NCBI GenBank assembly: GCA_965208125.1
Contig: OZ242320.1
Span: forward strand, 4,224,001-4,288,000
Origin: Candidatus Latescibacterota bacterium
GTDB lineage: Bacteria > Latescibacterota > UBA2968
Length of the DNA: 64,000 bases
Direction: 5' to 3'
Below, one piece after another: positions 1 to 64,000 of this stretch. Below the pieces are notes generated by a model. The model did not search any database, had not been told where the DNA came from, and saw nothing but the letters and a program-made list of their open reading frames with translations. Position 1 is the stretch's first letter. Every line of letters starts with the position of its first letter. The position numbers were made by a program, and so were the translations under genes.

Positions 1-83
1 ACATCGGGCACGACCCCACCCATCTCTTTCCCTTCGGGACCTCGCCCCCACCCATCGACAACGCGGTATTGATAAGTTGTCAT
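1..83 (-). CDS. 5' part of a probable NHL-repeat (peptidylglycine lyase-like) protein, running off the window edge
   Basis: RBS AAAGGAG, then ATG at 83; reads MTTYQYRVVDGWGRGPEGKEMGGVVPDV, resembling the Y-x-V-V-x-G-W N-terminus of NHL-repeat proteins. Not in the ORF track. Confidence 0.6.
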   Translation of the reverse strand, partial: MTTYQYRVVDGWGRGPEGKEMGGVVPD

Positions 84-109
84 TGTGTACTCCTTTCAAA
101 TATGCCCGA

Positions 110-937
110 CTACCTGTCCAGTCTAACCCAATCGGGCCAAACGCTGGCAAAAAATGCTCGCTGGATGCCTCGTACGCTCTCCCCGCCGTCAACAACGAGA
201 TTGGAGCCTACACTGAAGTTGCCGGCTTGCGAAGCGAGAAAGATGGCCATGCCTGCGATGTTTTCCTTCTCCCCAACCCGCTTGCCCGGAATGTTCTTCT
301 TCATCTCGTCTGTGTGATCCCGAGCCACCTTATTCAAATCGCTGGGAAAATCGCCAGGGGAGATGGTGTTGACTTGAATCCCTTCCCAGGCCAAACTATC
401 ACCCAGGTGCCGGCCCAAATGGATCACACCTGCTTTGCTGGCTCCGTAGGCATAATTGTAAGCTGTGTTGAGTTTACCACAGCCGTCGATAGACGCGATA
501 TTGATCACATTGCACGGTGTTTCTGGCGAAGCCCCCACGCGCAGGAATGGCAGAAACGCCTGGGTCATAAAAAAGATGCTTTTGAGATTGAGATCCATCA
601 CCGCGTCCCATGTTTCCTCCGTCACATCCTCGATCTCCCTGCGACCATCGCTGATTCCAGCATTGTTGATCAATATATCGAGCGACTGTTCTCGTTCACC
701 GTAGGCCTTTGCCAGCGCCTTGATTCCGGAGACTGAACTTACATCGGCTGCGATATACTCGCAGGAGCCGATTTTTGCCAGCTCCGCCTGTTTCTTTTTC
801 AAGACCTCTTCTCTGCGCGCGACAATGTAAACCTTCGCCCCAAAATTGACAAAGCCTTCAGCGATCATCGCTCCGATGCCAGTCGAACCACCAGTCACCA
901 GTGCGGTTTTTCCCTCCAGTGAAAATAGATCTCTCAT
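110..937 (-). CDS. Short-chain dehydrogenase/reductase (SDR)
   Basis: TGGSTGIG, NNAG and YGASK motifs; start placed at MRDLFSLEGK behind a GGAG RBS. Confidence 0.93.
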   Translation of the reverse strand: MRDLFSLEGKTALVTGGSTGIGAMIAEGFVNFGAKVYIVARREEVLKKKQAELAKIGSCEYIAADVSSVSGIKALAKAYGEREQSLDILINNAGISDGRREIEDVTEETWDAVMDLNLKSIFFMTQAFLPFLRVGASPETPCNVINIASIDGCGKLNTAYNYAYGASKAGVIHLGRHLGDSLAWEGIQVNTISPGDFPSDLNKVARDHTDEMKKNIPGKRVGEKENIAGMAIFLASQAGNFSVGSNLVVDGGESVRGIQRAFFASVWPDWVRLDR

Positions 938-984
938 TTTCGATTCTCCGTAAGTTGGGCAATCTGTGTTCATGTAAATGTCGT

Positions 985-2223
985 TTATTTTATTTGTGTA
1001 TAGTCGGAGGTGAGCGTTAAATCACCCGACTTCACATTAATAAAGCATGCGGTTGTCCCCTCGGGCTGCGTGGCGGTTACCACCCACTGATCGGCCATCC
1101 TCTCCAGCTTTGCAGGTGATTCGATCCACTTCCTTTTGCCGGTTATCCCGGTATCAGCCGTTGATATCAGAAGGACTTCATCCAATGGCCTTGACGATTC
1201 AAAAATCACTGTGAACTGTCCGCCCTCAGTTCTGGACGAAATTTGCCTGGCCCAGGGTTTGCCGTCTTTGACAACGCTGTCTGCAAAGGCATAGCTGTCT
1301 GGAGGATTCATGCCGGCCTGATGCCCGTGTTTCATGCCGGGGATCAGACATACCATGTAGGGCCCAGATACAGTGCGATAGCAGGAGGCCTGCTTGTCCA
1401 ATGGAAAGTGCTGGTCTCCCGGCCAGGAGAGCCAGAGGGTCGGAATTTTCACTTTCTTTAAGCGTAGAATAGGATCCCAGACCTTCTTGTAAAGGTCATT
1501 ATTTCCAAGCGCCCTGCCGTATTGATTGGCCGCCTGGGATAGGTTCCCGCATCCGTACGTGGGAATGGCAAAAGCAAAGCGGTCGTCGATACCGATAATA
1601 GTGCTTGCAATGATGCCGCCCCAGGAGATACCCATCAGACCGACGCTCGTACTATCTACCTGTGGCAAGGAACGAAGGAGCGAGTTCGCCAGGATTGCAT
1701 CGGCAACGGCGTGATACATCCACTGTTCTTCAATCGGTTTGTCGGAGTCACCGTAAATGCCTGTGCGAGTTGGTCCTGGCCAGGGATGTTTTTTCCATCT
1801 GTTGCGCCTATTGTCGCCGGGTTTCCTGGGCACCCGTTCATCTATCTGTCCTTCCACTGCGATACTGATTGCCGCGTATCCGCGGGCATTCCACTTTTCA
1901 ACCCACTCCTTAAAGGCGGTTCCGCCACCGCCATGGACTAATACGATCCCCGGGACCTTGTGGCTCGGCGATGCATCCTCAGGGATACCGATCCATGCAT
2001 AGACGCGGGTTGGTTTTCCCTCGTACATAAGCGCATCAAAGTAGATCGTCTTCAACTCACCAGCATCAATACTGACGATTTGCTCCTTTTCATTGCGGAC
2101 AACTGGCGCATTTGTCAGTTCAGCCAGTGCGCGTATTCTCAATTCCTCATCACGGTAATCAGCTTGCACGTTCAAAGTCCTCAGCATTGCTGTGAAAATA
2201 ACCGTCAATGTAATCATTCTCAT
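985..2223 (-). CDS. Secreted alpha/beta hydrolase (acetylxylan esterase/dienelactone hydrolase-like)
   Basis: HGGGG oxyanion motif, GISWGG nucleophile elbow, hydrophobic signal-like N-terminus; start uncertain. Confidence 0.8.
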   Translation of the reverse strand: MRMITLTVIFTAMLRTLNVQADYRDEELRIRALAELTNAPVVRNEKEQIVSIDAGELKTIYFDALMYEGKPTRVYAWIGIPEDASPSHKVPGIVLVHGGGGTAFKEWVEKWNARGYAAISIAVEGQIDERVPRKPGDNRRNRWKKHPWPGPTRTGIYGDSDKPIEEQWMYHAVADAILANSLLRSLPQVDSTSVGLMGISWGGIIASTIIGIDDRFAFAIPTYGCGNLSQAANQYGRALGNNDLYKKVWDPILRLKKVKIPTLWLSWPGDQHFPLDKQASCYRTVSGPYMVCLIPGMKHGHQAGMNPPDSYAFADSVVKDGKPWARQISSRTEGGQFTVIFESSRPLDEVLLISTADTGITGKRKWIESPAKLERMADQWVVTATQPEGTTACFINVKSGDLTLTSDYTQIK

Positions 2224-2227
2224 TTGA

Positions 2228-2938
2228 TTACACATCCCATCGCCACGTATTGCGACAGGCAAGCCGTGGATACTCATTCACGTTCTTGCTTCCCGCGTGT
2301 ACAAAAAAGTTTTGGTAAAACAGAATGTCTCCACGCTTCGCCACCACTTCCACACCTTCGCCAATATCCACCTTATGCATATCCGAATTCACGTCCCACA
2401 GATAGGGATACTTCTCTGGATTGCTCTCTGCAAGACCCCGCATCTTTTTATGTGAACCCGGCCATCCAAACGTGCAACCTCCATGCGATTCTGTATCACT
2501 CAAATACAAAATTGAATGCACACTGATTGGAATCGGAAACGTCACATTAAACTTCTCCCGGTTGGTTCCGCCATCGAAGTGAGGTTTCTGGTGGCTCCAT
2601 TCACCTTCCGTGGGAAACGTGTTCTGCGTCAGAATATCCTTCGGCGCGTGGATTTCCTCGCGATCCTCATCCGTCAATTCGGAAAGTGCGGTTAAAATAT
2701 CATCCGTATAACACGCTAAGATACCCGGCGCGCCCAATCTTCGATTTTCCGGCAATGCGCGATGCCGTTGATTAATCGCATGCGCTGACACGCGGTCCCA
2801 GGTTTCAGGATCGTCACGGTCCATTCCCAGAGCCGCCCACATCGCGTCTTCACCCTTGCGAGCTACATCCCCAGGAATCAAACCCGACGCCAGCAAATAC
2901 CCTTCTTCGCGAAACTGCTTCTTCTGCTCATTTGTCAT
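2228..2938 (-). CDS. PhyH-family Fe(II)/2OG dioxygenase
   Basis: FREEGYL N-terminus, HFD, WPGSH, RGDILF..VHAG; paralogue of 54041..54808. Confidence 0.88.
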   Translation of the reverse strand: MTNEQKKQFREEGYLLASGLIPGDVARKGEDAMWAALGMDRDDPETWDRVSAHAINQRHRALPENRRLGAPGILACYTDDILTALSELTDEDREEIHAPKDILTQNTFPTEGEWSHQKPHFDGGTNREKFNVTFPIPISVHSILYLSDTESHGGCTFGWPGSHKKMRGLAESNPEKYPYLWDVNSDMHKVDIGEGVEVVAKRGDILFYQNFFVHAGSKNVNEYPRLACRNTWRWDV

Positions 2939-2947: not shown

Positions 2948-4294
2948 CTAATTTTGTTGCGCAGGTCTGTTTCTATTTCTCCGACGTCTTCTAATCCTTG
3001 GTGCCATCTGGCTTCTCCAGGCCTTGAATTTTTTTTGTAGCCGCTGAACCATTTCCGGTTGTTGGTTTGCCAGATCGTTTTTCTCACCTATATCTGCATC
3101 CAGATCGTACAATTCCAGCTTCTTAGACCTGCTAAATGTAAGCTTCCATTTCCCTTCTCGAATCGCCCAGGTTCCCGAATCGCCATCCCAATACAACGCA
3201 TCGTGCAATGCCCCTTCTGTTTTACCTTGCAAGACTGGCAACATATTTTTGCCATCGTAGATACGGTCTTCGGGCAATGGAATGCCAACAGCTGCACAGA
3301 CAGTCGGCAAAATATCCATACAAATAACTGGTTCATCACACACACCACCTGCTTCCAAATGCCCTGGCCAGGACACGAGAAACGGCACGCGTAGCCCTCC
3401 CTCATAGACATTCTGCTTGTAACCGCGCAGGGGCATATTGTTTGCATTTGTGGCCCTTGCACCACCATTATCTGAAAAATAAAAGATGAGTGTATTTTCC
3501 CACACGCCATTGGTCTTGAGCGCTGCCACCACATCGCCAACAGCGATATCCATTCTTTTGAGCATGCCCATCAAAATATCGCGTTTGGAGTCTCCTGTAT
3601 TAAATTGTTTGATATCCTCTTCGGGAGCTTGCAATGGCGCATGCACGGCATTAAAGGGAAGATAAAGAAAGAATGGGTCGTTTTTGTTTCGTTCAATGAA
3701 GCCAACAGCCTCTCGAGCCAGATTATCGGTCAAGTACCCGGTATCATTGATGATCTCTTTATTTCGATATATCGCATTATGGGCTCTGTCTTCTTTATAA
3801 TTCAAATCAAAATAGTCGTGCCCCCCATGCCCTAAAAAGCCGTAAAATTCATCAAATCCACGGTTGTTCGGATGATATTCAGGCGTCAAACCCAAATGCC
3901 ATTTTCCAAATACCCCCGTCCTGTACCCCGCTTTTTTGAGTAGATCTGCAAGTGTAATTTCATCAACCGGCATACCGGCGCGTGAGTCACTGGCCGTATA
4001 AAAACCAAAGCGCTGTTGGTATCGACCGGTCATCAAACCCGCCCTGGTGGGCGCACATACAAAGGCACTGGCATATCCATTTGTCATTCGAATGCCCGAG
4101 TTGGCCAGTGCGTCGATATGTGGTGTATAGACTTCCGGGGGATGTGCCTGGTAACTCACATCTCCAAAGCCCTGGTCGTCTGACAAAATCACCACAATAT
4201 TTGGACGTTTGGCATCTTCGGCCCATATAAAAGGACTTGCTATCATTCCAGATACTCCTATTCCCAAAGTTTTTAAAGCGGCGCGTCGATCCAT
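2948..4294 (-). CDS. Arylsulfatase-like sulfatase with Tat signal
   Basis: MDRRAALK twin-arginine start after an AAGGAG RBS; PNIVVILSDD, CAPTR, GKWHLG. Confidence 0.93.
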   Translation of the reverse strand: MDRRAALKTLGIGVSGMIASPFIWAEDAKRPNIVVILSDDQGFGDVSYQAHPPEVYTPHIDALANSGIRMTNGYASAFVCAPTRAGLMTGRYQQRFGFYTASDSRAGMPVDEITLADLLKKAGYRTGVFGKWHLGLTPEYHPNNRGFDEFYGFLGHGGHDYFDLNYKEDRAHNAIYRNKEIINDTGYLTDNLAREAVGFIERNKNDPFFLYLPFNAVHAPLQAPEEDIKQFNTGDSKRDILMGMLKRMDIAVGDVVAALKTNGVWENTLIFYFSDNGGARATNANNMPLRGYKQNVYEGGLRVPFLVSWPGHLEAGGVCDEPVICMDILPTVCAAVGIPLPEDRIYDGKNMLPVLQGKTEGALHDALYWDGDSGTWAIREGKWKLTFSRSKKLELYDLDADIGEKNDLANQQPEMVQRLQKKFKAWRSQMAPRIRRRRRNRNRPAQQN

Positions 4295-4342
4295 ATTGTA
4301 ACGCTCCTTGCTCGTATGCGCATCTCCACCGGCCAGCCAGCC

Positions 4343-4363
4343 GGCAACACGGTATTTTTTCAT
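4343..4363 (-). pseudogene. 5' stub MKKYRVA, resembling the start of a Gfo/Idh/MocA oxidoreductase
   Basis: Purine-rich RBS and ATG 10 nt after the ThuA-like stop; 7 recognisable codons, then unrelated sequence leading to the sulfatase RBS. Confidence 0.45.
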
Positions 4364-4373: not shown

Positions 4374-5045
4374 TTAGACTATCAGCCATGTAATTGCGTT
4401 GTCAATAAGCTTCGCAGTCATTGGATGCATAAGAATAGCCTGATCGTGCCCAGGCACCAGCACCATCACACGTCCACTTCCATACTCGTGACACCAACCT
4501 TGCACATGCCGTCCATTGGTCACAGAATAGCTCTCAAGAAATACAGATGTTTGCGATTCATCCAGGTCCATAATATACTCTTCTTCTTGAACACAATAGG
4601 GTTCAACACCATCGGTCAGTTCGGGTAATACGCCTGTCGGACGGATTTCGACATCGATCCGCTTTGGGTGGTTGTGAAAACGAGACTTTGAGACGCGCTG
4701 AATACCGCCGCCTTCGGAATAAAACGCAACGGCATCGTGGTGAAGAAATAGTCGGCCGCCATTTTGTGCATATGCCTCAATGAGCGTTTCCTCATCTTCA
4801 GAAAGCCACTTGTGTTTATGCCCTTGGTGAAGGGTAAACTGCAACTCACGAGCATTTCGTACATCGTCGAATGCATATCGGCTAATGAGCACCATATCAA
4901 AAGATGAGAGATCGTCCCAGGGCACCGCATTGTCAAATACAATTGTCGGATCATACCCTCGCACATGTAGTGGTCTCACAAGCGCAGTAACCAAATGTGC
5001 CGGGCAGTGGTAAGCGTCTCCAAGAACTGCGAGTAATTTTTTCAA
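4374..5045 (-). CDS. ThuA-like (class I glutamine amidotransferase-like) protein
   Basis: LGDAYH, GGRLFLHH, EEEY, YGSGRV..PGH; TTG start behind AAGGAG. Confidence 0.8.
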   Translation of the reverse strand: MKKLLAVLGDAYHCPAHLVTALVRPLHVRGYDPTIVFDNAVPWDDLSSFDMVLISRYAFDDVRNARELQFTLHQGHKHKWLSEDEETLIEAYAQNGGRLFLHHDAVAFYSEGGGIQRVSKSRFHNHPKRIDVEIRPTGVLPELTDGVEPYCVQEEEYIMDLDESQTSVFLESYSVTNGRHVQGWCHEYGSGRVMVLVPGHDQAILMHPMTAKLIDNAITWLIV

Positions 5046-5092: not shown

Positions 5093-6253
5093 CTACTCAT
5101 AGACCATCTCCCCGGTCTTGTGGTCCTCGATCCAGTCCCGGTCGAACTCCACTCCCAGCCCTGGTCCCTCCGGCACTTCGACGCAGCCGTTCTCGTCAAC
5201 CGAATCCAACTCGTCGAGCCAGCGTCTTTCTGAATAGACCGCTGGCTTGGTATTGGGCACCAGGGGATGCACCAGGCCCAATTCGTAGTAATTGGCGTTG
5301 CGCAGGGTCGCCATGATATGCCGGTGTGCCAGATTGCCGCCGTGCAACTCCACGTCCAGCCCGTGCGCCTCGGCCATAGCAGCGATCTTCATTACCCCGG
5401 TGATGCCGCCGTCGGTCTGGACGTTGGCGCGCACAAAGTCGGTGGCACCGGCAGTAATGGTATCGGCCTTGGCTTCAAGCCCACGCACGTGTTCGCCCAT
5501 CAGCATCGGCGTATTGATCAACTCGCGCAGCTTGGCGTGGGCAAAGCGCGAAAAGCCGCCGCCCCTGAACGGATCTTCGTACCACATATAGCGCGCCTCG
5601 TCACAGGCGCGACCCACCTTGAGCACGTCCTCGAATGTGGGGAAACACCCGGCCGGATCGAGCAACAGATCCATATCGTCGCCCACCGCTTCGCGAATGG
5701 CTAATACCGCTGCCACTTCGCGGTCGATCGGCCCGTTGATCCAACCGTGGATTTTAAAGGCTGGATAGCCGTATTGCTCCTTGCAGCGCAGCGCGAATTG
5801 CGCAAAGTCGTCCGGTGTCGTCAAACCGCCGTTTTCGTCGCCGTGGTAGGTCGAAGCGTAGGCCGGCAACTTCTTGCGCCAACCCCCGCCCAAAAGCTCG
5901 TAGATCGGCGCGTCGTAGAGTTTGCCGGCGAAATCCCACAGCGCGATATCTACTGCGCCCGGCGGCGTGCCGTCCTGCCCGCGACGCGAGCGCTTGAGGT
6001 CGTGCCAGATGATCTCGCGGTCCAGCGGGTTGCGGCCGAGCAGGTACTGCGCCGGGCGGGAATCGATGCCACCGGACGCAATGCCGCTGATGCCGACGCT
6101 GGTCTCGATGGTCAGCAAGCCGCCGCCCAGAGTCAGACGGCCGCCCTTGCGATAGACCGTGTCGAAGCCCAATTGCTCTTCCAACTCCATATCGGCGATT
6201 TCATAGGCGAAACTCGTCGAGGTGATGCGGGTGATCTCAATATCTCGCGCCAT
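5093..6253 (-). CDS. Mandelate racemase/muconate lactonizing enzyme family (enolase superfamily)
   Basis: VDIALWD, FKIH, LLLD/WYEDP/MGE metal ligands, GPGLGVE. Confidence 0.92.
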   Translation of the reverse strand: MARDIEITRITSTSFAYEIADMELEEQLGFDTVYRKGGRLTLGGGLLTIETSVGISGIASGGIDSRPAQYLLGRNPLDREIIWHDLKRSRRGQDGTPPGAVDIALWDFAGKLYDAPIYELLGGGWRKKLPAYASTYHGDENGGLTTPDDFAQFALRCKEQYGYPAFKIHGWINGPIDREVAAVLAIREAVGDDMDLLLDPAGCFPTFEDVLKVGRACDEARYMWYEDPFRGGGFSRFAHAKLRELINTPMLMGEHVRGLEAKADTITAGATDFVRANVQTDGGITGVMKIAAMAEAHGLDVELHGGNLAHRHIMATLRNANYYELGLVHPLVPNTKPAVYSERRWLDELDSVDENGCVEVPEGPGLGVEFDRDWIEDHKTGEMVYE

Positions 6254-6305
6254 GCTGCTCTCTCCTTCACTGTGTGTTTGATTTAAACTTTCGCTCCACG
6301 GCTAC

Positions 6306-7190
6306 TCATCTCACGATCTGAGGTGACGCATAAAGATCGGGCCTGGCTTCGTTCGCTGTGAAGCAACCGGATGACCGCGCGTTCTCTATTAAATCTCTCG
6401 AGACCTCGGTCACGATCATGCCTTCCACTGGCGCGTGTTCGTCGATGAACTGGCCGTTCGGATCGATCGCGAAGGCGAGCCCTGGAAACCAGGCGTTGCC
6501 GCTTTTTCCCGCCTGGTTGGCGTAGAAAATGTAGAGCGCATTGTCCACGGCTCTCGCTGGCAAGATCTGGGCGGCAAGCTGTCGATGTTCGGCTGCCTGT
6601 TCGGTCTGATCGCCGTCAGGGGTGACGTTGTCAGCGCGGCCGCTTGCACCCACGGCGAGGAGGAAAAAGTCCGCGCCCTCCTGTGCGGCGGTTCGGAAGA
6701 TCTCCGGAAACCTCAGGTCGTAGCAGATCCCCACGCCGAAGGTCCAGCCTTGCGATGTCACAATAGGGAGTTGGCTCCCCGGTTCGAACCAGGCCCGCTC
6801 GGTTTCATTCGGGATGTGCAGTTTGGTGAAGGTCGCGAGGTAACCGCTGGGGCCTACGATGTAGGCGCTGTTGCGATAGCGTTCGCCCGCTGGCTCGATG
6901 GTACCGACGACAAGGGTCATGTCGAGTTCGCTGCAGAGCGATTCGAGGAACGGAATTGATTTCTCGGCCGCTGCTTCTGCGATCCGCACGGACTCCTCGG
7001 GAAGAATGTCCGATTTGTTCATCGAGCCCGTGATGCACTCTTCGGGAAAGAGCGCAAACGCGGCACCTTGCCTGTGAGCCTCTCTCGACCACTTGGCAAT
7101 TCGGTCGAGGTTGGTCGTGGGGTCGCCCATCGCGCTGTGCATGGCGACCGATGCGATACGTGTTTTTGTGTTGTTCATGGGATATGCCAT
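6306..7190 (-). CDS. Carbon-nitrogen hydrolase (nitrilase superfamily)
   Basis: E-K-C triad motifs FPEE, KLH, GICYDLRFPE. Confidence 0.92.
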   Translation of the reverse strand: MAYPMNNTKTRIASVAMHSAMGDPTTNLDRIAKWSREAHRQGAAFALFPEECITGSMNKSDILPEESVRIAEAAAEKSIPFLESLCSELDMTLVVGTIEPAGERYRNSAYIVGPSGYLATFTKLHIPNETERAWFEPGSQLPIVTSQGWTFGVGICYDLRFPEIFRTAAQEGADFFLLAVGASGRADNVTPDGDQTEQAAEHRQLAAQILPARAVDNALYIFYANQAGKSGNAWFPGLAFAIDPNGQFIDEHAPVEGMIVTEVSRDLIENARSSGCFTANEARPDLYASPQIVR

Positions 7191-57780: not shown

Positions 57781-57874
57781 ATATCCGATTCTCCAAAAAA
57801 AAGATTTTGTGATGATTGGGTATCAATATGCATCAGGCGATAAAAATGCTAACTGTCAATCGCGTTGTAACCCC

Positions 57875-59302
57875 TCACCATTTCTGATCTATAATCAGAA
57901 ATCCTTTCGCTTTACACAGTTCACTGTCTTTCCATCCGTAAAAGAGGAGCATGCCATCTCTTATATTTCCTTTTGGATCTTTAATCGGTTGAATATTGTT
58001 AAATTTCCAACCGGCATACTCCGGGGCACGTGGCGTCAAATCTCTCACTCTTTGCCAGGTGAATCCACTATCTGTGGAGATCCACTCTTCAATATCTCCT
58101 CCACCTCTGGAGTCCATGTTGCCACGTTTTCCTTTTATAAATTTGTGATCACCTACTATCAGATAAGCATGTAGTGTGCCACTTTCATCCTGCCTGAGAT
58201 AGCAACTGTTCCAATCATCAGTGGCAGGGGTGATAACCGTCTGTATCCATTCATGATTAATATACCTCACATAATAGTAATTGCACCTGTCGGGCACATC
58301 TTCCGATAGCACATGCAAAAAGGCCGGATTGTCATTTTCATCTATGACAATATCAGGTGGAACGCCTGCGCCTCTCCAATCGGTATTCCAAATCTTGCAT
58401 TTGTCATTTGCAGTGCCAATATCAATGGGCGTTCTGACTGTCTCGCCATCAAAATTCGCGACCTCATGCGTTTGAAGGTTGATTTTTACATAATAGAGAT
58501 TGTATTTGATCCCGAGATTCTTTTTGGTTCCATAACGAGGATTGTAAAACTTTTCTGGGATATCCTTCTTATTGTCATCATAAGAACAAAATACGGCGTG
58601 CAAAAACTTTCCATCTTTACTCGGAAAGCAAGTGTGATAAGAAGACCACTCATTCAAGTCCATCGGATCATCTACTGTTGCTGTTTCTTCCCCCATGTTT
58701 AAATCTGTGACATCATTTTCAGGCCCTGACCAGGTTTTACCTTCATTGTCTGAAATTAAATATGACCACGAACTTCTGTGTTCTCCTGTTCGGAAATAAA
58801 TCACTTGTCTATTGTCGTATATGTGATAAACCGTAGGATAAGAAAGCGAGTTTCTTATTTCAGGGGCTGGAGACCAGTCTTTTACACTGTTTCCAATATC
58901 CGCTACCTTTTTTGAGATTAAATGTGTTCCTGGCGTTCTGTGACAACCTGACAAAATATGTAAAAAGTCATCATTATCAGCCCAGATTATAGGGCAATAA
59001 TGCTGGTCGTTTGAGCCTTTGGTTCCCAGTTGTAGGGGAGACGAAAAGGACTTTGTCTCGGGGTTAAAAGAGATAACAAAAGGATATGTCTTTTCCCTGA
59101 TCTCAGCATCCATTGGTGCCCCGCCATTATAGACGATATATACTCGATTGTTGATAAAGATGGCTTGAGGGCGCTGCCTTCTGTCATAGATCATTTTTAA
59201 TTGTCCCCCACTTCCAAAGGGGACAACAGAAAAATCCATTTGTTTCTCAGTATCCACAGCCTGACCTCCAAATACAATCGGTGAAATAAGAAGGACGCTC
59301 AA
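57875..59302 (-). CDS. BNR_4 beta-propeller protein, probably 5'-truncated
   Basis: DQHYCP, SYP, Asp-boxes SDNEGKTW and STDSGFTW; begins mid-signal-peptide with no RBS. Confidence 0.75.
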   Translation of the reverse strand: MSVLLISPIVFGGQAVDTEKQMDFSVVPFGSGGQLKMIYDRRQRPQAIFINNRVYIVYNGGAPMDAEIREKTYPFVISFNPETKSFSSPLQLGTKGSNDQHYCPIIWADNDDFLHILSGCHRTPGTHLISKKVADIGNSVKDWSPAPEIRNSLSYPTVYHIYDNRQVIYFRTGEHRSSWSYLISDNEGKTWSGPENDVTDLNMGEETATVDDPMDLNEWSSYHTCFPSKDGKFLHAVFCSYDDNKKDIPEKFYNPRYGTKKNLGIKYNLYYVKINLQTHEVANFDGETVRTPIDIGTANDKCKIWNTDWRGAGVPPDIVIDENDNPAFLHVLSEDVPDRCNYYYVRYINHEWIQTVITPATDDWNSCYLRQDESGTLHAYLIVGDHKFIKGKRGNMDSRGGGDIEEWISTDSGFTWQRVRDLTPRAPEYAGWKFNNIQPIKDPKGNIRDGMLLFYGWKDSELCKAKGFLIIDQKW

Positions 59303-59321
59303 TTTCCAGGAGTGCCACCAT

Positions 59322-62000
59322 CTACTTCCTGGTGGGGGGTCCTTCAGGATTTACTGTAGCGCCTGTTACAAACAATAAGGCATCTTTGGAAAGCTTTTTG
59401 CCGCCCACGTACATACCCCATCGAAAGGTACTGCGCCCACTGGGTCTTTCCCAGTCGTGGCGTCCTACAAACTCCCCATTGATGTAGCATTCAGATGTAT
59501 GGCCGTTGTCGCGAATGCGGACATCAAAAGACTTGCCTTCCATGTTCTTTAATACTGTCTTAGAAGTCGCTCTGCGCGGCTGGAATACGATGTCACCATC
59601 AGCGGTCATAACCAACATTATAGACCAGTCTTCACCACTGTTTTTCACCTGAAAGATGCCACACCCCTGCGCTTTCACAATCGTGTAGGTGCCAATCCAT
59701 TCATGCCAGGTACCGCGGTTCCATCTCTTTTTGCTAAACGCCTCAATCCGAGCCGCATTGGCACGTGCATTGCGCACATTGTGCTCACCATCAAAAAGGC
59801 GAAACACCTGTGTGCTTCCGTCCTCCTGATACCATCGCGACCATTTGTGAAAATCGCGTCGAGGAATCAAACTGTTGCCCAGTGTGTGAATGTTGATTTC
59901 CCTTTCTATGGGGCGAAAGGCATGAGGTCCCTTTTCTACCACCTCGTTATTGACGTCAATTATTGAACCTGTTATTCCCACATATGAGTTCGTACCGATC
60001 GGAATCTGTTTCTCTTCGAGAATGGACGACCAGGAAGGATCACTGCCCTGCCTGGTGTAAAGGAACCGGTCGGGGTTGTCTTCTGCCTGTTTTGTAAAAT
60101 CGAGGATCTTCTTTCGCGTCCCTTTGCTGATGGTGACAACCCCGCTGTTCCACTCAGCATTGAGAAAGGGGCTTTCAAAGACTTTTTTGGGGGCGTAGTC
60201 GATCGGCTTGCCATTGATTGAGGGTACCGCTTTGGCACTGGTATCAAAGGTCAACTGATCGCCATAGATGGTTTTGTAGCGCAGCACCGTCCCATCTATA
60301 TGAACTTCACAGGCTTTTACCTTTTTTTTGAAAGCGTCGAAACTCGTGACATCGCTCCTGGCCATGACTTCGATGATCACCGGTGCGTATTCATCATTGG
60401 GGATCATGGTCGCGTTTTCGGGAACAAAGCGATCCGTTTCAAACTCGCCATCCATCCACTTGAAATCGCCTGTGACCACGCGGATCGCCGCATAAGCGCC
60501 TTTGGCCTCCACATAGACCACGCCATCCTCTTCCACTGGCGCGCTCAACCCGCTCTTCGACATCCAGATGATCATCTCGGCACCGTCCTTATGGTGCTTG
60601 AGCTTCTGGGTAATTAAGCTTCCCTTGCTCTGCACAGACCACTGTGCGTTCATGGCCACCCGGTTGTCTTTGGGGCGAACGATGGGAACAATACGCGCAT
60701 CGTGTTCGCCGGCAAAGATCACGCCTTGCCAGCGGTTTTGCGCACTGATCGCAGCCCAATCCTTCAGAGGCCTCGCTTCCGTCATCGGCGTTCCCATGAT
60801 GAAGGCGGGATCACAGTAGCTGTAGCGCAGAATACCACCTCCATCGGTTCGCATCCTGGTCGGCACTTTTGTAGCAGCAATCTTCAAAGGGCGACCTGTT
60901 TTTCCCAGACCCTGGGGACGCTGCCGCACCTCGTAGCGTCCTCGTCCTGCCACGTCGATTGCGATATCGGCTACCACGGCTGGCGGACGGTAGTCGCTGA
61001 GAGCCGCGTTCATGTCATGACCATAAACAGCAGGTTGCTTGCCGATGCCAAAGTAGAACCAGGCCAGCGGCGCATTGCCATGCTCCCGGTTTTGCTTAAG
61101 CCCTTTCCAGAAATAGATGCGCGACCGCCCGCCTCCTTGAACGCCGTCAATCTGTTCCTGCGCCCAATAGGCAAAATAAAGATCGAGCAACAGCCCGGCC
61201 GACTGTCTCACCTGCGGGTCACCAAAGTCGTAGAAATTGTAGAATCCTTTGATCAATGTGCTGTTATAGTCGTCGCACATCATCTCGATGCACAGGCTTT
61301 TGCGCGCACGTTCACGGCAGTAAACCACAAAATACGCATTCCAGGCCCGATAATGTTCTGCCGCCGTAGCGCCGTCATCATACTTGAGATTCTTGTATTC
61401 GGGCCGATCTTTCGCGATTTTGGCAAATTGCCAGCAGACCGTAAAACTCATGGCATGATGATTCTCTGACAGGTAGATGTACCAGGTCTTAGATTTCTCG
61501 TATTCCGCCTTATCAAGCCGGGAAACCTTCCTGACGTATTCCCAAATTGGCTTGAGAGCGAGGGCTTCGGTTTTTTTGGTGATGCGATTACTGCCGTTGG
61601 TGCCGTACATCTCAATCAGCCGCATGACGACCTCCGCATGCCAGTGAAAACTGTCGCGGTCATTGATGTCCAGGGGGTTGTCGAGATAATGCTGGGCATT
61701 TTCGGCAAGTGCGGCATTGGCTTCTTCCAGCATCTCGTTCAGGTAGAGGCAGCGTGCGGCAAACCCCACCATGGAATAGGAATAGGCCCGCACATAATTT
61801 CCTCGCCCGGGATCGAGTGGCTTCTGTTTCTTTGCCCGCACCAACGGCTTGCCGGATTCAGCGCGAAACATCGCATCCACGCGTTGTTCAAAGCCAGCCA
61901 CGACCGCTTCGGAGGTAAAATTCTTCTTCACCGGTTCCGCTCCTTGTGTCTGCCCAGTTATAAGTATAACGACCAGCATTATGCGGTTGATGATTCGCAT
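59322..62000 (-). CDS. Secreted heparinase-like toroid/beta protein fused to a C-terminal PL7-like jelly-roll domain
   Basis: Signal MRIINRIML; SENH motif; N-part homologous to 62363..64000; C-domain has RIEAF, IFQVK, FRWGMY. Confidence 0.7.
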   Translation of the reverse strand: MRIINRIMLVVILITGQTQGAEPVKKNFTSEAVVAGFEQRVDAMFRAESGKPLVRAKKQKPLDPGRGNYVRAYSYSMVGFAARCLYLNEMLEEANAALAENAQHYLDNPLDINDRDSFHWHAEVVMRLIEMYGTNGSNRITKKTEALALKPIWEYVRKVSRLDKAEYEKSKTWYIYLSENHHAMSFTVCWQFAKIAKDRPEYKNLKYDDGATAAEHYRAWNAYFVVYCRERARKSLCIEMMCDDYNSTLIKGFYNFYDFGDPQVRQSAGLLLDLYFAYWAQEQIDGVQGGGRSRIYFWKGLKQNREHGNAPLAWFYFGIGKQPAVYGHDMNAALSDYRPPAVVADIAIDVAGRGRYEVRQRPQGLGKTGRPLKIAATKVPTRMRTDGGGILRYSYCDPAFIMGTPMTEARPLKDWAAISAQNRWQGVIFAGEHDARIVPIVRPKDNRVAMNAQWSVQSKGSLITQKLKHHKDGAEMIIWMSKSGLSAPVEEDGVVYVEAKGAYAAIRVVTGDFKWMDGEFETDRFVPENATMIPNDEYAPVIIEVMARSDVTSFDAFKKKVKACEVHIDGTVLRYKTIYGDQLTFDTSAKAVPSINGKPIDYAPKKVFESPFLNAEWNSGVVTISKGTRKKILDFTKQAEDNPDRFLYTRQGSDPSWSSILEEKQIPIGTNSYVGITGSIIDVNNEVVEKGPHAFRPIEREINIHTLGNSLIPRRDFHKWSRWYQEDGSTQVFRLFDGEHNVRNARANAARIEAFSKKRWNRGTWHEWIGTYTIVKAQGCGIFQVKNSGEDWSIMLVMTADGDIVFQPRRATSKTVLKNMEGKSFDVRIRDNGHTSECYINGEFVGRHDWERPSGRSTFRWGMYVGGKKLSKDALLFVTGATVNPEGPPTRK

Positions 62001-62013
62001 TATAAACACTCTG

Positions 62014-62328
62014 CTAATCCTGGTGAAAAACTTCCTGCAGCGGTATGCAGATCGGCGAGTTGTCGGGGTTGGTGTCCATGATATCGGCCATGTAGGCCCA
62101 CCATTTTTTGACGATTGCGGTCTCCGGCAACTCATCTGCAGTATTGTCGTCGGTCAGCTTCTGCACGGCAAAGAGTGTCAGCGTCTCCTCATCGAGAAAA
62201 ATTGAATAGTCCGAGACGCCAGCTTTGCCCAATTCTTCAGCCAGTTCGGGCCAAATTTCGTCGTGGCGCTTTTTGTACTCGGCCTCGTAACCGGGCTTTA
62301 GCTGCATCTTGAAAGCATTGCGTTGCAT
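62014..62328 (-). CDS. rhaM: L-rhamnose mutarotase
   Basis: AFKMQLKPG, EYKKRHDEIWPE, DYSIFL, KWWAYMADIM, EVFH. Confidence 0.95.
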   Translation of the reverse strand: MQRNAFKMQLKPGYEAEYKKRHDEIWPELAEELGKAGVSDYSIFLDEETLTLFAVQKLTDDNTADELPETAIVKKWWAYMADIMDTNPDNSPICIPLQEVFHQD

Positions 62329-62362
62329 GATATTTTACTCCTGACTTTGAGGATGAAGGGTG

Positions 62363-64000
62363 TTAGCATTCGTCCCTTAAATTATTGTTAAAGTCGAGGT
62401 TGAGTTTGTAATCGCCTTTGCAAATTTCAATCTGGCCGCTATCATAATTGGATTGGATATAAGGGCTGTCGAAAACTTTTGGGTGCTCATAATCGACATA
62501 CTTTCCACCAATTGCAGGCACATCGCTTGTATTGGCCGCATTAAATACTATTTCTGCCATTTCAGGCGCGGCACTCTTGTAAACAACAACAATGCCTGTT
62601 TCTCTTGTTACCACGGTTCTATAGAGTGTGAGTTCGCCCTGCAAAATCATACGCTTAAAATTTTCCAATGTTGGGTGATCTGCCTTGCGACCTGCTTCTA
62701 TCAGAACGGGACTGTATCTGTTGGTCAGTTGCAAAATCGTCTGATCGTTATTGAATCTATAGCTGTCGTTTCTAAGAACCACGTTGCCCCGGTATCTGTC
62801 GGTCCCTTTTGCCCAGGCTTTGGCATCGGCCTCTGCTTCCAAAAGAATAACCCGTATTGCCACATAGACATTTCTCTTCTCTGCAAATATCCATCCATCT
62901 GTTTCATCAATACGATCCCATCCGTTGCCTAAGAATAACCCGAATTCCCGATCATACCGATTGTCATTGGCTGGATACCAGTCTGGATTGGATTGTGCCC
63001 AACGTCTTCTTTGTTGGGTGATCAGCACTTGCTTATGCTGGACGCTGTGATACACCAATTCCATATCGTAGATATTTTCACCTTCGCGTTCTCCTTCTGG
63101 CGTATCCAGTGCAATGGTTGCCAGACGGGTGTTGGGATCTTTGGTCACCAGACCTTGCCAGCGCCCGGCGGTTGATAGGTGGTTGTAAAGCGCATAAGGG
63201 TGATCCATCTGAGTACCCAGCACATAATCTGGCGTTACCCATGTGTATTTGACAAACCGCGATGGCGTATCTCCCATCACGGTGCGCTCCGTGCCCAATG
63301 GACGAGGGCTGGTAGGTTCTTCTTCTCCAATGCCCCGAGAGAGATATGCAAATGACCCGAGCCCTTTTCGATCCAGAGCCAATTCCCATACGATTCTTGG
63401 CCAGGCATAGTCGCTTAAGAGTTGTTGCGGATAGTTGAACGAGGTTTTGCCCTCACCACCCAGATAGAAAATGGCGAGATCCGACATAGAATCGTATCCA
63501 CCAGCAGTCTTGTGGTGGCGCGTTTTGGGACCACCTCGTAAACCTGCAATTTGTAGCTGTGCCCAATCGGCCCACATCAGATCTAAAAACATGCCAATTT
63601 TCTTTTTTAGCCCCTCATCACCACAGAAATTGTAGAGCATAAGAATATAACTGATGGTGTACTTCATATAGGTAGGCGAACCATTTTCAAGAAAGAATCC
63701 CCGCTTTGCACGCTCAGTGAAATAGTCATTGAGATAGGGCAACCAGGCATCGTAATGATCGGCTGCGTTATAAGATTTTCCGTCCGCCCAATTTGCGCGC
63801 CCACCACCGTGTCGATCATTGCTGCCCTGCCCACAATAGCCCGACTCGCCGTATCCGATGCCATCTCCATAACCGAGGTCGGGATAAATGCGGTCAACAT
63901 ACTCGGGTTCATTGGCAAAAATACGCGCACTTAAAAGATTACAGGCTTTTGTATTCAGGTCGTGATTCTCACTACCCGCGATCCACCAGGTGCTCTTTTT
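62363..64000 (-). CDS. Heparinase-like hypothetical protein; 5' end lies outside the window
   Basis: Frame stays open to 64000 (KKSTWWIAGSENHDL...); shares SENH, HYxAW, RWQG, VQ.K..LITQ and VFxSP with 59322..62000. Confidence 0.8.
   Translation of the reverse strand, partial: KKSTWWIAGSENHDLNTKACNLLSARIFANEPEYVDRIYPDLGYGDGIGYGESGYCGQGSNDRHGGGRANWADGKSYNAADHYDAWLPYLNDYFTERAKRGFFLENGSPTYMKYTISYILMLYNFCGDEGLKKKIGMFLDLMWADWAQLQIAGLRGGPKTRHHKTAGGYDSMSDLAIFYLGGEGKTSFNYPQQLLSDYAWPRIVWELALDRKGLGSFAYLSRGIGEEEPTSPRPLGTERTVMGDTPSRFVKYTWVTPDYVLGTQMDHPYALYNHLSTAGRWQGLVTKDPNTRLATIALDTPEGEREGENIYDMELVYHSVQHKQVLITQQRRRWAQSNPDWYPANDNRYDREFGLFLGNGWDRIDETDGWIFAEKRNVYVAIRVILLEAEADAKAWAKGTDRYRGNVVLRNDSYRFNNDQTILQLTNRYSPVLIEAGRKADHPTLENFKRMILQGELTLYRTVVTRETGIVVVYKSAAPEMAEIVFNAANTSDVPAIGGKYVDYEHPKVFDSPYIQSNYDSGQIEICKGDYKLNLDFNNNLRDEC

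What the first reader, a model, noticed from the sequence alone, without database searches (positions are those of the whole stretch)
1..64000. Candidate attC-free gene capture and replacement array of catabolic enzymes
Seen: 45 of ~48 genes are co-oriented, mostly functionally unrelated singletons with short spacers. Composition changes abruptly at gene boundaries. At least eight spacers contain 5' or 3' stubs of genes that are otherwise gone, and five stubs match the termini of intact paralogues in this window. There is no attC/attI, IS, integrase or repeated spacer motif. Established: integrons give similar co-oriented mosaic arrays but leave attC sites and clean cassette ends. Inference: gene-sized DNA pieces are repeatedly inserted in one orientation, overwriting resident genes, and non-coding debris is trimmed. 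The result is a high-turnover enzyme library for sulfated or recalcitrant organic matter. The responsible machinery is not visible here; it could be host recombination plus strong deletion bias rather than a dedicated system.
Basis: partly seen in the sequence, partly recalled or inferred. Interest (0 to 1): 0.9.

Follow-up and report, generated by a model that had tools for sequence, protein, structure and literature searches.

The report
Hotspot of gene-by-gene enzyme turnover
A long one-directional run of sulfatase, dioxygenase and other breakdown-enzyme genes in an uncultured marine Latescibacterota bacterium is gained, lost and re-ordered one gene at a time between sister species, most likely by ordinary recombination and deletion rather than by an integron-like machine.

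Summary
42 of 45 genes lie on one strand. Per-gene GC3 runs from 0.39 to 0.78, in the top 1% of blocks of this genome. Five spacers hold gene stubs. There is no attC, integrase, tRNA or intact IS.

Four same-genus genomes show what the region is. The window appears in them as 111 blocks of 85-99% identity, none inverted, with genes present, absent or relocated one at a time. 35 of 44 gene boundaries are rearrangement breakpoints in at least one of the four relatives, against 9 of 27 in two control regions. 89 of 106 distinct breakpoints lie within 60 nt of an ORF end. Window genes are 95-96% identical to the relatives, the controls 90-92%. Contigs from four public runs show the same gene-skipping joints.

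The window is not a bounded array. The pattern runs over at least 135 kb and occurs at lower density elsewhere. Stubs are no commoner here than genome-wide. Junction offsets vary. One deletion shows microhomology. IS605/TnpB traces are present.

Best reading: the hottest part of a largely mobile-element-free hotspot of gene turnover and inter-species recombination. Selection keeps ORFs and ribosome-binding sites intact. A dedicated capture mechanism is not supported, but it is not excluded.

The parts
1..64000 (-). Part of a ~152-kb run of co-oriented genes (G000 4,220,004-4,372,410). 42 of 45 genes are on the minus strand, which is head-on to replication.
110..937 (-). g1, short-chain dehydrogenase. 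The true ATG is near 937, behind a GGAG ribosome-binding site.
985..2224 (-). g2, esterase-like (AXE1/DLH). It is a single-gene insertion (968-2224), absent here in G015, G008 and G017. In those genomes the gene lies 60-90 kb away at 92% identity. G014 has both copies.
2228..2938 (-). g3, PhyH dioxygenase. Its order with g4 is swapped in G014, in the same orientation.
2948..4297 (-). g4, sulfatase. The true start is near 4297, behind AAGGAG. In three different contexts, homology begins at this ribosome-binding site.
4298..4363 (-). Possible 5' stub (an ATG plus 21 codons) carried in with g5. No match to any N-terminus was found.
4374..5045 (-). g5, ThuA-like. It is a single-gene indel (4310-5070), absent in G015 and G014 and skipped by contigs of 3 runs.
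5093..11929 (-). g6-g11: MR/MLE enolase-like, two CN-hydrolases (6306-7190, 7228-8229), unknown 429-aa protein g9 (8229-9518), GH130/43-like (9558-10493), pectate-lyase-2-like (10511-11929). GC3 is 0.61-0.78.
12088..17805 (-). g12-g14, an RND efflux operon (pump, membrane-fusion protein, outer-membrane factor). It moves as a block: relocated in G008 and skipped by contigs of 3 runs.
17919..17977 (-). 3' stub of an aldo/keto reductase, about 90% identical to 29914-29978. An intact reductase sits at this spot in G014.
17998..23175 (-). g15-g18: DUF4432, Exo_endo_phos, unknown 701-aa protein, PhyH.
23347..25215 (+). g19, unknown 622-aa protein, one of 3 plus-strand genes. It is reduced to end stubs in G008, G017 and G014.
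25216..25252 (-). 3' stub (12 codons) of an AP_endonuc_2 (sugar-phosphate isomerase-like) gene that is intact at this place in G015, G008 and G014.
25253..25313 (.). Fragment of the end of an IS605-family (TnpB) element. It matches DNA beside TnpB copies elsewhere in G000.
25346..28580 (-). g20 and g21, two sulfatases that share 75-104-nt patches at 72-80% identity.
28612..29826 (-). g22, MR/MLE enolase-like, GC3 0.39. It is a single-gene indel (28586-29906) set between the stop codon of g23 and 6 nt before the ATG of g21. Absent in G015, G017 and G014.
29906..36582 (-). g23-g27: aldo/keto reductase, PhyH, beta-helix protein, PhyH (g26, relocated in G015, G017 and G014), sulfatase.
36605..37753 (-). 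g28, AAA_14/DUF4143 ATPase. It is a single-gene indel (36600-37799), present only in G017 among the 4 relatives.
37824..43646 (-). g29-g32, four consecutive sulfatases. They are 31-38% identical to their nearest paralogues, so they are not recent duplicates.
43692..45161 (-). g33, unknown 489-aa protein, a duplicate of g36 (89% nt, 80% aa). The shared unit is the ribosome-binding site plus the ORF. Absent in G015, G008 and G017.
45224..45250 (-). 3' stub resembling the end of PhyH gene g41 (78% identical to 54885-54911, 96% to the other stub).
45243..46403 (-). g34, PhyH-domain protein.
46605..48167 (+). g35, pectate-lyase-2-like, GC3 0.39, on the plus strand.
48346..48465 (+). 3' stub matching the C-terminal 40 aa of a ~400-aa protein family (E 5e-6).
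48536..50786 (-). g36 (unknown 494-aa protein) and g37 (PhyH).
50867..50893 (-). Second 3' stub of a g41-like PhyH gene.
50974..64000 (-). g38-g45: sulfatase, sulfatase, PhyH (53999-54808, plus strand), PhyH, sulfatase-HEAT, BNR_4 (GC3 0.39), unknown 937-aa protein, unknown protein running off the window.

Best explanation
The window is the densest part of a hotspot of gene turnover at least 135 kb long and largely free of mobile elements. It lies in the chromosome of a Candidatus Latescibacterota MAG whose genome holds at least 150 sulfatase and at least 154 PhyH matches.

SHOWN. Sister species carry the same pool of genes, but with single genes or small operons present, absent, duplicated or moved. 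Orientation is always kept, and breakpoints lie at ORF ends.

INFERRED MECHANISM, in three parts.
1. Illegitimate events arise anywhere: microhomology deletions, small duplications or insertions, and occasional IS605-associated losses.
2. Selection keeps only the events that leave neighbouring ORFs and their ribosome-binding sites intact and that place a promoterless gene in the sense direction of the co-transcribed run. Deletion removes the debris and leaves short stubs.
3. The resulting presence/absence alleles spread between co-occurring species by homologous recombination through the roughly 95%-identical flanking genes. This explains why the region is more similar between species than the rest of the genome.

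The functional outcome is a rapidly varying repertoire of enzymes, plausibly for sulfated glycans. That function is inferred from family names only.
For: MOSAIC STRUCTURE.
- The window matches four relatives as 111 blocks of 85% identity or more, none inverted.
- 0 of 79 blocks of 500 nt or more are on the reverse strand, yet there are 19 backward steps in gene order.
- All 137 relatives' genes whose best match lies in the window are in the same orientation.

BREAKPOINTS.
- 35 of 44 gene boundaries are broken in at least 1 of 4 relatives.
- 89 of 106 distinct breakpoints lie within 60 nt of an ORF end, although 86.7% of the window is deeper in genes than that.
- Junctions read base by base show variable offsets: 0-14 nt upstream of the ATG or at the ribosome-binding site, and -20 to +50 nt around stop codons. 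There is no target duplication and no shared motif.

GENERIC DELETION.
- The second site of g2 in G000 keeps a ~20-nt 3' stub, and the deletion lies between short CTATYT-like repeats.
- The reductase stub at 17919-17977 corresponds to an intact gene in G014.
- G014, G017 and G008 carry many stubs and internal deletions.

GENOME-WIDE PROCESS.
- In the controls, 9 of 27 boundaries are broken and 0 of 24 breakpoints are deep in genes.
- 220 of 2016 spacers genome-wide hold stub-like matches.

GENE FLOW.
- Window genes are 94.9-96.2% identical to the relatives. Two control regions run through the same pipeline give 90.0-92.5%. The long blocks of a third control give 86-93%.
- Adjacent genes differ sharply. 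Against G015, g35 is 99.2%, g36 90.4% and g37 99.7%. g24 is 88.3% against G015 but about 96.5% against G008 and G017.
- g9 is 89% aa identical in a genome of another family.

INDEPENDENT ASSEMBLIES.
- Contigs of four runs from four studies show joints at 967|2225, 4309|5071, 11997|17987 and 8208|9556.
- One run holds both the g5-containing form (904 nt, 0 differences) and the g5-less form.

NO LOCAL MACHINERY.
- No recombinase among 28 flanking ORFs within +-20 kb.
- The nearest of 5 tyrosine recombinases lies 80 kb away.
- No tRNA and no Rfam hit.
- No reverse transcriptase in the genome.
Against: - PRECISION. Some insertions are strikingly exact. g2 shares homology with its other copy from exactly the ATG to 9 nt past the stop. 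g22 sits between a stop codon and 6 nt before the next ATG. Selection plus trimming must then work fast, within less than 5-8% divergence. I did not model whether that is quantitatively plausible.
- ORIENTATION. Strict conservation of orientation could reflect mechanism rather than selection.
- RECOMBINATION NOT TESTED FORMALLY. The higher identity rests on only three control regions of 20 kb, two of them run through the same pipeline. It could partly reflect local constraint.
- COMPOSITION. Jumps in GC3 are no larger at broken than at unbroken boundaries (0.108 vs 0.109, p 0.73). Composition is therefore not tied to the recent events.
- MAG STATUS. G000 is estimated 96.4% complete with 5.0% contamination, and record titles of close relatives mark them as MAGs.
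- UNCONFIRMED ADJACENCIES. Four window boundaries (g2|g3, g32|g33, g33|g34, g41|g42) are broken in all four relatives and are confirmed by no other assembly.
Confidence: 0.62

Rival explanations
1. A dedicated, integron-like but attC-free system moves units made of a ribosome-binding site plus an ORF in one orientation into a long expression array. The recombinase would be encoded elsewhere or be of an unrecognised kind.
For: - Units shared between contexts are the ORF plus 0-15 nt upstream and at most about 20 nt downstream, as seen for g2, g3, g4 and g33/g36.
- 0 of 79 blocks are inverted.
- 35 of 44 boundaries are active.
- Neighbours are unrelated genes rather than tandem duplicates.
Against: - Junction offsets vary and no motif, target duplication or hairpin is shared. 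Hairpins occur in 7 of 32 spacers against 4.2+-1.6 in the coding control.
- 17 of 106 breakpoints lie deep in genes, and many stubs show imprecise events.
- The same boundary precision is seen in control regions.
- No recombinase lies within +-20 kb and the genome has no reverse transcriptase.
Confidence: 0.1
2. Tandem duplication of multi-gene segments, followed by random loss of one copy of each gene, is the main generator of the order changes. Unequal crossing-over in a co-oriented array would drive it. This process keeps orientation and leaves stubs.
For: - Order permutations keep orientation, for example the g3/g4 swap in G014, the efflux block in G008 and the g38/g39 swap.
- G014 holds many partial duplicates and stubs.
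- g33/g36 are duplicates 4.9 kb apart.
Against: - Only 1 recent duplicate pair exists among the 45 genes.
- The two sites of g2 are 60-91 kb apart, which would need a very large duplication and near-total loss.
- Relatives hold 5, 3, 7 and 19 genes in this region with no DNA match anywhere in G000, so true gain or loss dominates.
Confidence: 0.12
3. The whole region of 135 kb or more is, or lies in, a large mobile island that spread recently between species. That would explain its higher identity. The internal mosaic would be secondary.
For: - 93-99% identical blocks continue from G000 4.2195 to 4.354 Mb, against 90-92% in the controls.
- Defence-like and toxin-antitoxin-like genes and TnpB elements sit in the region in relatives.
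Against: - No integrase, relaxase or conjugation family was found among the 45 window genes and 28 flanking ORFs.
- There is no tRNA between 4.011 and 4.524 Mb.
- The nearest tyrosine recombinase is 80 kb beyond the window.
- Identity varies gene by gene from 88 to 99.7%, not uniformly.
- The island ends were not mapped.
Confidence: 0.08
4. IS200/IS605-family (TnpB) elements drive the rearrangements.
For: - A 374-aa TnpB element is inserted at window position 62001|62002 in G015, and in inverted orientation at 16437|16443 in G008.
- An element-end fragment at 25253-25313 replaces a gene that is intact in three relatives.
Against: - Only 1 of the window's 45 spacers carries such a fragment.
- G000 has 5 close copies, none of them in the window.
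- The other junctions that I read show no element ends.
Confidence: 0.05
5. The mosaic is an artefact of metagenome assembly or binning, that is, chimeric joins between co-existing strains.
For: - Record titles of close relatives mark them as MAGs.
- Related strains co-occur in one run.
- Four window adjacencies are shared with none of the 4 relatives.
Against: - The same alternative joints recur in single-contig relatives and in contigs of four runs from four studies.
- A 904-nt contig with 0 differences spans both g5 junctions, and an 8722-nt contig is collinear over 9460-18181.
- G014 shares the local g2 context.
Confidence: 0.03

Closest known systems
Hotspots of horizontal gene transfer that lack mobile genetic elements (Oliveira, Touchon, Cury & Rocha 2017, PMC5635113; abstract read)
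   Same: Gene-repertoire change is concentrated in a small part of the chromosome, with rapid turnover. There are no recognisable mobile elements. There are signs of homologous recombination in the conserved flanks.
   Different: Here there is not one interval between two core genes. It is a co-oriented run of at least 135 kb in which 35 of 44 gene boundaries are active. All relocations keep orientation. The genes are head-on to replication. Recombination was inferred from identity contrasts only.
Integron gene-cassette arrays, such as chromosomal super-integrons (features recalled from memory)
   Same: Co-oriented, mostly promoterless single-gene units of unrelated origin with short spacers. 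Cassette-wise presence, absence and re-ordering between relatives.
   Different: There are no attC sites: 27 of 45 spacers are shorter than the smallest attC, and 0 attC-like core pairs lie in spacers. There is no IntI nearby. Junction offsets vary. Stubs and broken genes are present.
Flexible genomic islands and hypervariable regions of marine bacteria (recalled; no paper read here)
   Same: The region occupies the same position in related genomes but differs in gene content. It carries niche-specific functions and is exchanged across lineages.
   Different: The content is catabolic enzymes of two hugely expanded families rather than surface-glycan genes. The resolution of change is the single gene.
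Sulfatase-rich polysaccharide-degradation loci of Latescibacteria/PAUC34f, Poribacteria and PVC bacteria (PMC4454575, search listing only; PMC7081726, passages read)
   Same: Many sulfatases lie with glycan-active enzymes. The passages read report that sulfatases are relatively enriched in PAUC34f and Poribacteria compared with Latescibacteria.
   Different: The passages I read say nothing about gene-by-gene mosaicism, co-orientation or the PhyH expansion. No SusC/SusD-type pair appears among the window's Pfam hits.
Homology-facilitated illegitimate recombination after DNA uptake (recalled; not read here)
   Same: It would insert foreign DNA using one homologous anchor and one microhomology end. 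That fits variable junctions next to conserved genes.
   Different: It is untested here. ComEC and DprA homologues exist, but they are found in most bacteria.

Membership tests
Integron | IntI-type tyrosine recombinase next to the array | tested here: not met
   No PF00589 among the 45 window genes or the 28 ORFs within +-20 kb. The genome has 5 matches, the nearest at G000 4,368,171, 80 kb beyond the window.
Integron | attC recombination site (57-141 nt imperfect hairpin, figures recalled) at the 3' end of each cassette | tested here: not met
   27 of 45 spacers are shorter than 57 nt. The window holds 4 attC-like core pairs (shuffles give 8.4+-3.9), and 0 lie inside a spacer. Caveat: this was a regex on a recalled consensus, not IntegronFinder's covariance model.
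Integron | Co-oriented single-gene cassettes that vary cassette-wise between relatives | tested here: met
   42 of 45 genes are co-oriented. 35 of 44 boundaries are broken in at least 1 of 4 relatives.
Mobile-element-poor hotspot of gene turnover (sensu PMC5635113) | Gene gain and loss concentrated above the genome's background | tested here: met
   35 of 44 boundaries are broken against 9 of 27 in two controls, Fisher p 1.5e-4. Only two control regions of 20 kb were used.
Mobile-element-poor hotspot of gene turnover (sensu PMC5635113) | No recognisable mobile-element genes | tested here: met
   No integrase, transposase or phage family in the window. There is one IS605-end fragment at 25253-25313, and TnpB insertions occur in two relatives.
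Mobile-element-poor hotspot of gene turnover (sensu PMC5635113) | Elevated homologous recombination in flanking conserved genes | tested here: inconclusive
   Identity is 94.9-96.2% against 90.0-92.5% in controls, and adjacent genes differ by up to 9 points. No formal recombination inference was run.
Polysaccharide utilisation locus (Bacteroidota type) | SusC/SusD-like transporter pair | tested here: not met
   No SusD or TonB-dependent receptor family among the Pfam hits of the 45 genes.
IS200/IS605 element | TnpB and/or TnpA gene between element ends | tested here: not met
   No TnpB copy lies in the window. tblastn finds 10 hit segments elsewhere in G000: 5 close copies, one of them split into two segments by a frameshift, and 4 distant ones. 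Only an end fragment remains at 25253-25313.
Tandem duplication-random loss | Recent duplicates and partial copies next to relocated genes | tested here: inconclusive
   1 duplicate pair (g33/g36) among the 45 genes. G014 has many partial duplicates. The two sites of g2 are 60-91 kb apart.

The most novel reading that the evidence does not exclude
ORFs with their ribosome-binding sites are the real unit of exchange. On this reading, a recombinase-independent or not-yet-recognised process inserts promoterless genes, sense-oriented, into a very long head-on transcription array. Candidates are template switching at replication-transcription conflicts, or homology-anchored illegitimate recombination after DNA uptake between co-resident symbiont species. 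The array would then work as an integron-like enzyme library without attC or IntI.
Probability: 0.12. Interest if true: 0.8.

Novelty: new variant of a known kind. Interest (0 to 1): 0.45.

Why it matters
The region shows, at single-gene resolution, how an uncultured lineage diversifies a huge catabolic repertoire without visible mobile elements. The genome carries at least 150 sulfatase and at least 154 PhyH matches.

Nearly every gene boundary in the window is a point of exchange, and orientation is always kept. The region is also more similar between species than the genome backbone. Together these suggest a gene pool shared across species boundaries.

That makes the genus a good natural system for separating selection from mechanism in 'gene-precise' indels. 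At least 19 species genomes are held, many of them single contigs. It is also a source of co-varying enzyme sets for sulfated-glycan breakdown.

The case is a caution as well. An integron-like appearance can arise without an integron.

Tried and rejected
- attC scan by recalled core consensus: 4 pairs against 8.4+-3.9 in shuffles, none in a spacer.
- Rfam at gathering thresholds: 0 hits.
- tRNA scan: 0 in the window.
- Reverse transcriptase PF00078 in G000: 0 matches. A retro-copy route is therefore unsupported.
- Perfect hairpins in spacers: 7 of 32 against 4.2+-1.6 in the coding control, not convincing.
- Link between GC3 jumps and breakpoints: none (0.108 vs 0.109, p 0.73).
- Empty-site fillers (18 and 23 nt) as leftovers of the inserted genes: no meaningful match.
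- The 4298-4363 '5' stub' against all N-termini: no match.
- Stub enrichment: the window has 2 against a genome mean of 2.44 per 64 kb. One of the 2 is an artefact of my crude gene call at 9697-9849.
- Dispersed repeats seen in relatives (window 29868-29910 and 25253-25313): low copy in G000, with 1 and 4 hits.
- ComEC and DprA: present but uninformative, since the controls ring in 10-11 of 14 genomes.
- Leading-strand bias as the cause of co-orientation: rejected. Only 49% of all genes are co-directional with replication, and this run is head-on.
- ORF 8563-9696: rejected as a gene (GC3 0.44 at 61% GC). The real gene is 8229-9518.
- Literature: 'phytanoyl-CoA dioxygenase'+sulfatase+sponge+symbiont gave 0 papers. 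Latescibacteria+sulfatase+sponge found 4 papers, of which 3 were listed; I read passages of one of them, and those say nothing about such mosaicism. I did not search for the phenomenon under other names, so I make no claim that it is unpublished. Supplements were not consulted.
- Sequencing runs: none held more than 0.41 of the sampled words, so the source sample was not among those served.
- No run was on record as RNA, so transcription was not examined.

Full report
WHAT THE WINDOW IS

The window is G000:C1:4,224,001-4,288,000 of a single-contig genome of 5.75 Mb with 51.2% GC. The genome is estimated 96.4% complete with 5.0% contamination. Record titles of the closest relatives of its RND pump name them Candidatus Latescibacterota MAGs.

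ORF listing and Pfam give 45 genes, 42 on the minus strand:
- 11 sulfatases and 8 PhyH-type Fe/2OG dioxygenases
- 2 MR/MLE enolase-like enzymes and 2 CN-hydrolases
- 2 pectate-lyase-2-like proteins
- one aldo/keto reductase, one SDR and one ThuA-like protein
- a three-gene RND efflux operon
- an AAA_14/DUF4143 ATPase
- DUF4432, BNR_4 and beta-helix proteins
- 7 proteins with no Pfam or NCBIfam family

One long ORF (8563-9696) is spurious. Position-specific GC shows that the real gene is 8229-9518, coupled by an ATGA overlap to the CN-hydrolase gene 7228-8229.

The genome as a whole holds at least 150 sulfatase matches (193 candidates) and at least 154 PhyH matches (189 candidates).

CHECKING THE OBSERVATION

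Co-orientation is real and rare. Only 0.98% of equal-sized gene blocks in the genome are as one-sided. The run extends from 4,220,004 to 4,372,410.

It is not leading-strand bias. dnaA lies at 1,986,403, at the GC-skew minimum, and the skew maximum is near 5.0 Mb. The plus strand is therefore the leading strand here, and the run is head-on to replication. Only 49% of all genes are co-directional with replication.

Compositional heterogeneity is also real. GC3 ranges from 0.386 to 0.784 with SD 0.108, in the top 0.73% of 45-gene blocks. The mean difference between neighbours is 0.108, in the top 0.24%. Spacers are short (median 35 nt), but the genome median is 25 nt.

I verify stubs in five spacers:
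- An aldo/keto reductase 3' end at 17919-17977, about 90% identical to the end of the intact reductase at 29906-30844. An intact reductase sits at that very spot in G014.
- A 12-codon 3' end of an AP_endonuc_2 gene at 25216-25252. The gene is intact there in G015, G008 and G014.
- Two copies of a PhyH 3' end at 45224-45250 and 50867-50893, resembling the end of g41.
- A C-terminal 40-aa remnant on the plus strand at 48346-48465.

A candidate 5' stub at 4298-4363 found no match. Stubs are not a speciality of the window. By blastx, 220 of 2016 mid-sized spacers genome-wide carry one, a mean of 2.44 per 64 kb, and the window has 2.

There is no tRNA, no Rfam family, no attC-like site in a spacer and no recombinase within +-20 kb. 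The one trace of a mobile element is a fragment of an IS605-family element end at 25253-25313.

WHAT THE RELATIVES SHOW

A DNA search of 18 same-genus genomes found window pieces at 92-97% identity in different arrangements. I fetched 100 kb of the syntenic region from four single-contig relatives, G015, G008, G017 and G014.

The window maps onto them as 19, 22, 21 and 49 blocks of 85% identity or more, 111 in all, and none is inverted. Of the 45 window genes, 42, 34, 29 and 29 are present at 80% coverage or more. Conversely, the relatives hold 5, 3, 7 and 19 genes in this region with no DNA match anywhere in G000. These are more sulfatases, reductases, GH10, GH125 and TauD, and also defence-like and toxin-antitoxin-like genes.

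Gene order is permuted. There are 3, 4, 3 and 9 backward steps along the four relatives, while 0 of 79 blocks of 500 nt or more change strand. All 137 relatives' genes whose best match lies in the window are in the same orientation.

35 of 44 gene boundaries are rearrangement breakpoints in at least one of the four relatives. Of 106 distinct breakpoint coordinates, 89 lie within 60 nt of an ORF end, although 86.7% of the window is deeper in genes than that.

JUNCTIONS READ BASE BY BASE

- g2 is an insertion of 1257 nt that replaces an 18-nt filler. Its homology to the copy that lies 60-90 kb away in three relatives runs from exactly its ATG to 9 nt past its stop. G014 has both copies. At the distant site, G000 retains a ~20-nt 3' stub, left by a deletion between short CTATYT-like repeats.
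- g4 keeps homology from its AAGGAG ribosome-binding site onward in three different contexts.
- g22 sits between the stop codon of g23 and 6 nt before the ATG of g21.
- g28 sits between a small hairpin after the stop codon of g29 and the ribosome-binding site of g27.
- g33 is an 89% copy of g36 that comprises the ribosome-binding site plus the ORF.

Offsets differ from junction to junction. There are no target duplications and no shared motif.

Imprecise events are also plentiful. They include an internal deletion of g9 in G017, end-stubs of g19 in three relatives, fused or truncated genes in G017 and G014, and alternative last codons in several genes.

IS IT SPECIAL?

I ran the same pipeline on two 20-kb control regions against the same four relatives. 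It gave 6 of 10 and 3 of 17 boundaries broken, 0 of 24 breakpoints deep in genes, and 90.0-92.5% identity. A third control showed 86-93% in its long blocks.

Gene-boundary indels are therefore a genome-wide habit of this genus. The window is a hot extreme of it: 35 of 44 against 9 of 27, Fisher p 1.5e-4.

The window also differs in being more similar between species. Length-weighted identity is 94.9-96.2%, with neighbouring genes ranging from 88% to 99.7%. The mosaic, the co-orientation and the 93-99% identity continue at least to G000 4.354 Mb.

Two genes without paralogues were traced through 150 genomes of the phylum.
- The low-GC3 BNR_4 gene is 94-97% identical in 12 of 19 sampled genus genomes and 81% in one other genus. 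Everywhere else it is 40% or less.
- g9 is intact in 5 of 19 genus genomes and broken in four. It is 89% identical in a genome of another family.

Outside the close (96-98% identical) relatives, the pump's best match is another Latescibacterota MAG at 80% identity. The next are Calditrichota, Bacteroidota and Desulfobacterota records at 70-77%.

INDEPENDENT ASSEMBLIES

Twenty public runs from 10 studies, many labelled sponge or marine metagenome, hold 0.28-0.41 of the sampled words of window 1-10000. This points to relatives rather than the source sample.

I laid contigs of four runs from four studies on window 1-20000. They show joints that skip exactly g2 (967|2225, in 4 runs counting variants), g5 (4309|5071, 3 runs), the efflux operon (11997|17987, 3 runs) and g9 (8208|9556, 2 runs).

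One run holds a 904-nt contig with 0 differences across both g5 junctions at depth 5, beside the g5-less form at depth 119. It also holds an 8722-nt contig collinear with 9460-18181.

The mosaic is therefore not an artefact of one assembly. Four window adjacencies (g2|g3, g32|g33, g33|g34, g41|g42) are nevertheless shared with none of the four relatives and remain unconfirmed.

MECHANISM

No integron features are present, and the genome has no reverse transcriptase. Nearest paralogues are distant (25-45% aa, megabases away) for all genes but g33/g36. Recent tandem amplification therefore did not build the array.

IS605/TnpB elements insert in the region in two relatives and probably took out one gene here. 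They account for very few junctions.

The variable offsets, the microhomology deletion, the stubs and the equal boundary precision in control regions point to generic illegitimate events filtered by selection. The events that survive spare ORFs and ribosome-binding sites, and they place promoterless genes in the sense direction.

The elevated and patchy identity points to spread of the resulting alleles by homologous recombination between co-occurring species. These last steps are inference. I ran no formal recombination test, had no transcription data and made no simulation of the selection filter.

The exactness of some insertions and the absolute conservation of orientation keep a mechanistic bias, or an unrecognised system, alive at roughly one chance in eight.

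COMPARISON WITH KNOWN SYSTEMS, AND VERDICT

The region works like an integron array in outcome but fails the defining features that I tested (IntI, attC). It fits the described class of mobile-element-poor hotspots of gene turnover (PMC5635113, abstract read). It is unusual within that class for four reasons: its length, its single-gene granularity, its strict orientation, and its head-on placement.

I rate it a new variant of a known kind and of moderate interest. The cautious half of its interpretation is supported. The idea of a discrete capture array is not.

Noticed in passing
whole genome G000: Extreme expansion of two families in a 5.75-Mb genome: at least 150 sulfatase matches (193 candidates) and at least 154 PhyH dioxygenase matches (189 candidates). 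None of the 14 control genomes has a PhyH match. The two families are often adjacent, which hints at a shared but unknown pathway.
   Followed up: partly
window 26946-28580, 35236-36582, 39205-40677, 40681-42066, 42168-43646, 50974-52401, 55786-57780: In 7 of 11 sulfatases the Pfam domain starts at residue 2-10 of the longest possible ORF. This leaves no room for a signal peptide, so these sulfatases may be cytoplasmic.
   Followed up: no
G000 1,986,403 (dnaA); window: GC skew and dnaA place the origin near 1.99 Mb and the terminus near 5.0 Mb. The ~152-kb co-oriented run that includes the window is therefore head-on to replication, in a genome with no overall strand bias (49% co-directional).
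   Followed up: yes
L012:7802-8926 (G015) and L015:5345-6484 (G008); window 62001|62002 and 16437|16443: A 374-379-aa TnpB (OrfB_IS605 / Cas12f1-like TNB) element is inserted at two different places of the region in two relatives. One insertion splits the efflux operon. G000 has 5 close and 4 distant copies elsewhere.
   Followed up: partly
L019:8179-13355 (G017), inserted between window positions 4309 and 4343: A 5.6-kb insertion carries an AAA ATPase, a PD-(D/E)XK nuclease and a WYL/WCX-HTH regulator. It looks like a defence-type module inside the catabolic run.
   Followed up: no
L027:16735-17973 (G014): A small HTH_3 plus Gp49-like (HigB/HigA-type) pair and a DUF3467 gene are inserted in the region in G014.
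   Followed up: no
window 8229-9518: This 429-aa protein with no Pfam or NCBIfam family is 89% identical in a genome of another family (G122) and 77-80% in three more. Yet it is intact in only 5 of 19 sampled genus genomes and broken in four. This is a clear case of patchy, cross-family spread.
   Followed up: partly
window 12088-15222: Outside the close (96-98% identical) relatives, the RND pump's best match is another Latescibacterota MAG at 80% identity. The next best are Calditrichota, Bacteroidota and Desulfobacterota records at 70-77% aa identity. That is high for different phyla.
   Followed up: no
window 26843-26917 vs 28506-28580, and 26463-26566 vs 28129-28232: The adjacent sulfatase genes g20 and g21 share short patches at 72-80% nt identity, including their first 75 nt. 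Yet in blastp the best paralogue of each lies elsewhere, at 28-29% aa. This may reflect partial gene conversion.
   Followed up: no
L114:512-2746: A 744-aa fusion of an alginate lyase domain with a PhyH dioxygenase domain lies just beyond the window's right end.
   Followed up: no
window 19958-22063, 23347-25215, 43692-45161, 48536-50020, 59322-62135, 62363-64000: Six large proteins (489 to 937 aa) have no Pfam or NCBIfam family. Together with g9 that makes 7. Their context suggests undescribed glycan-active enzymes.
   Followed up: no
G008:C1:3583085-3584497: The G008 orthologue of the BNR_4 gene (window 57875-59302) carries one in-frame TAG. It is a fresh pseudogene or a sequencing error.
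   Followed up: no
window 29868-29910: About 30-40 nt in the spacer after the reductase gene match the end of a ~150-nt sequence that is dispersed in many copies in relatives but rare in G000.
   Followed up: partly
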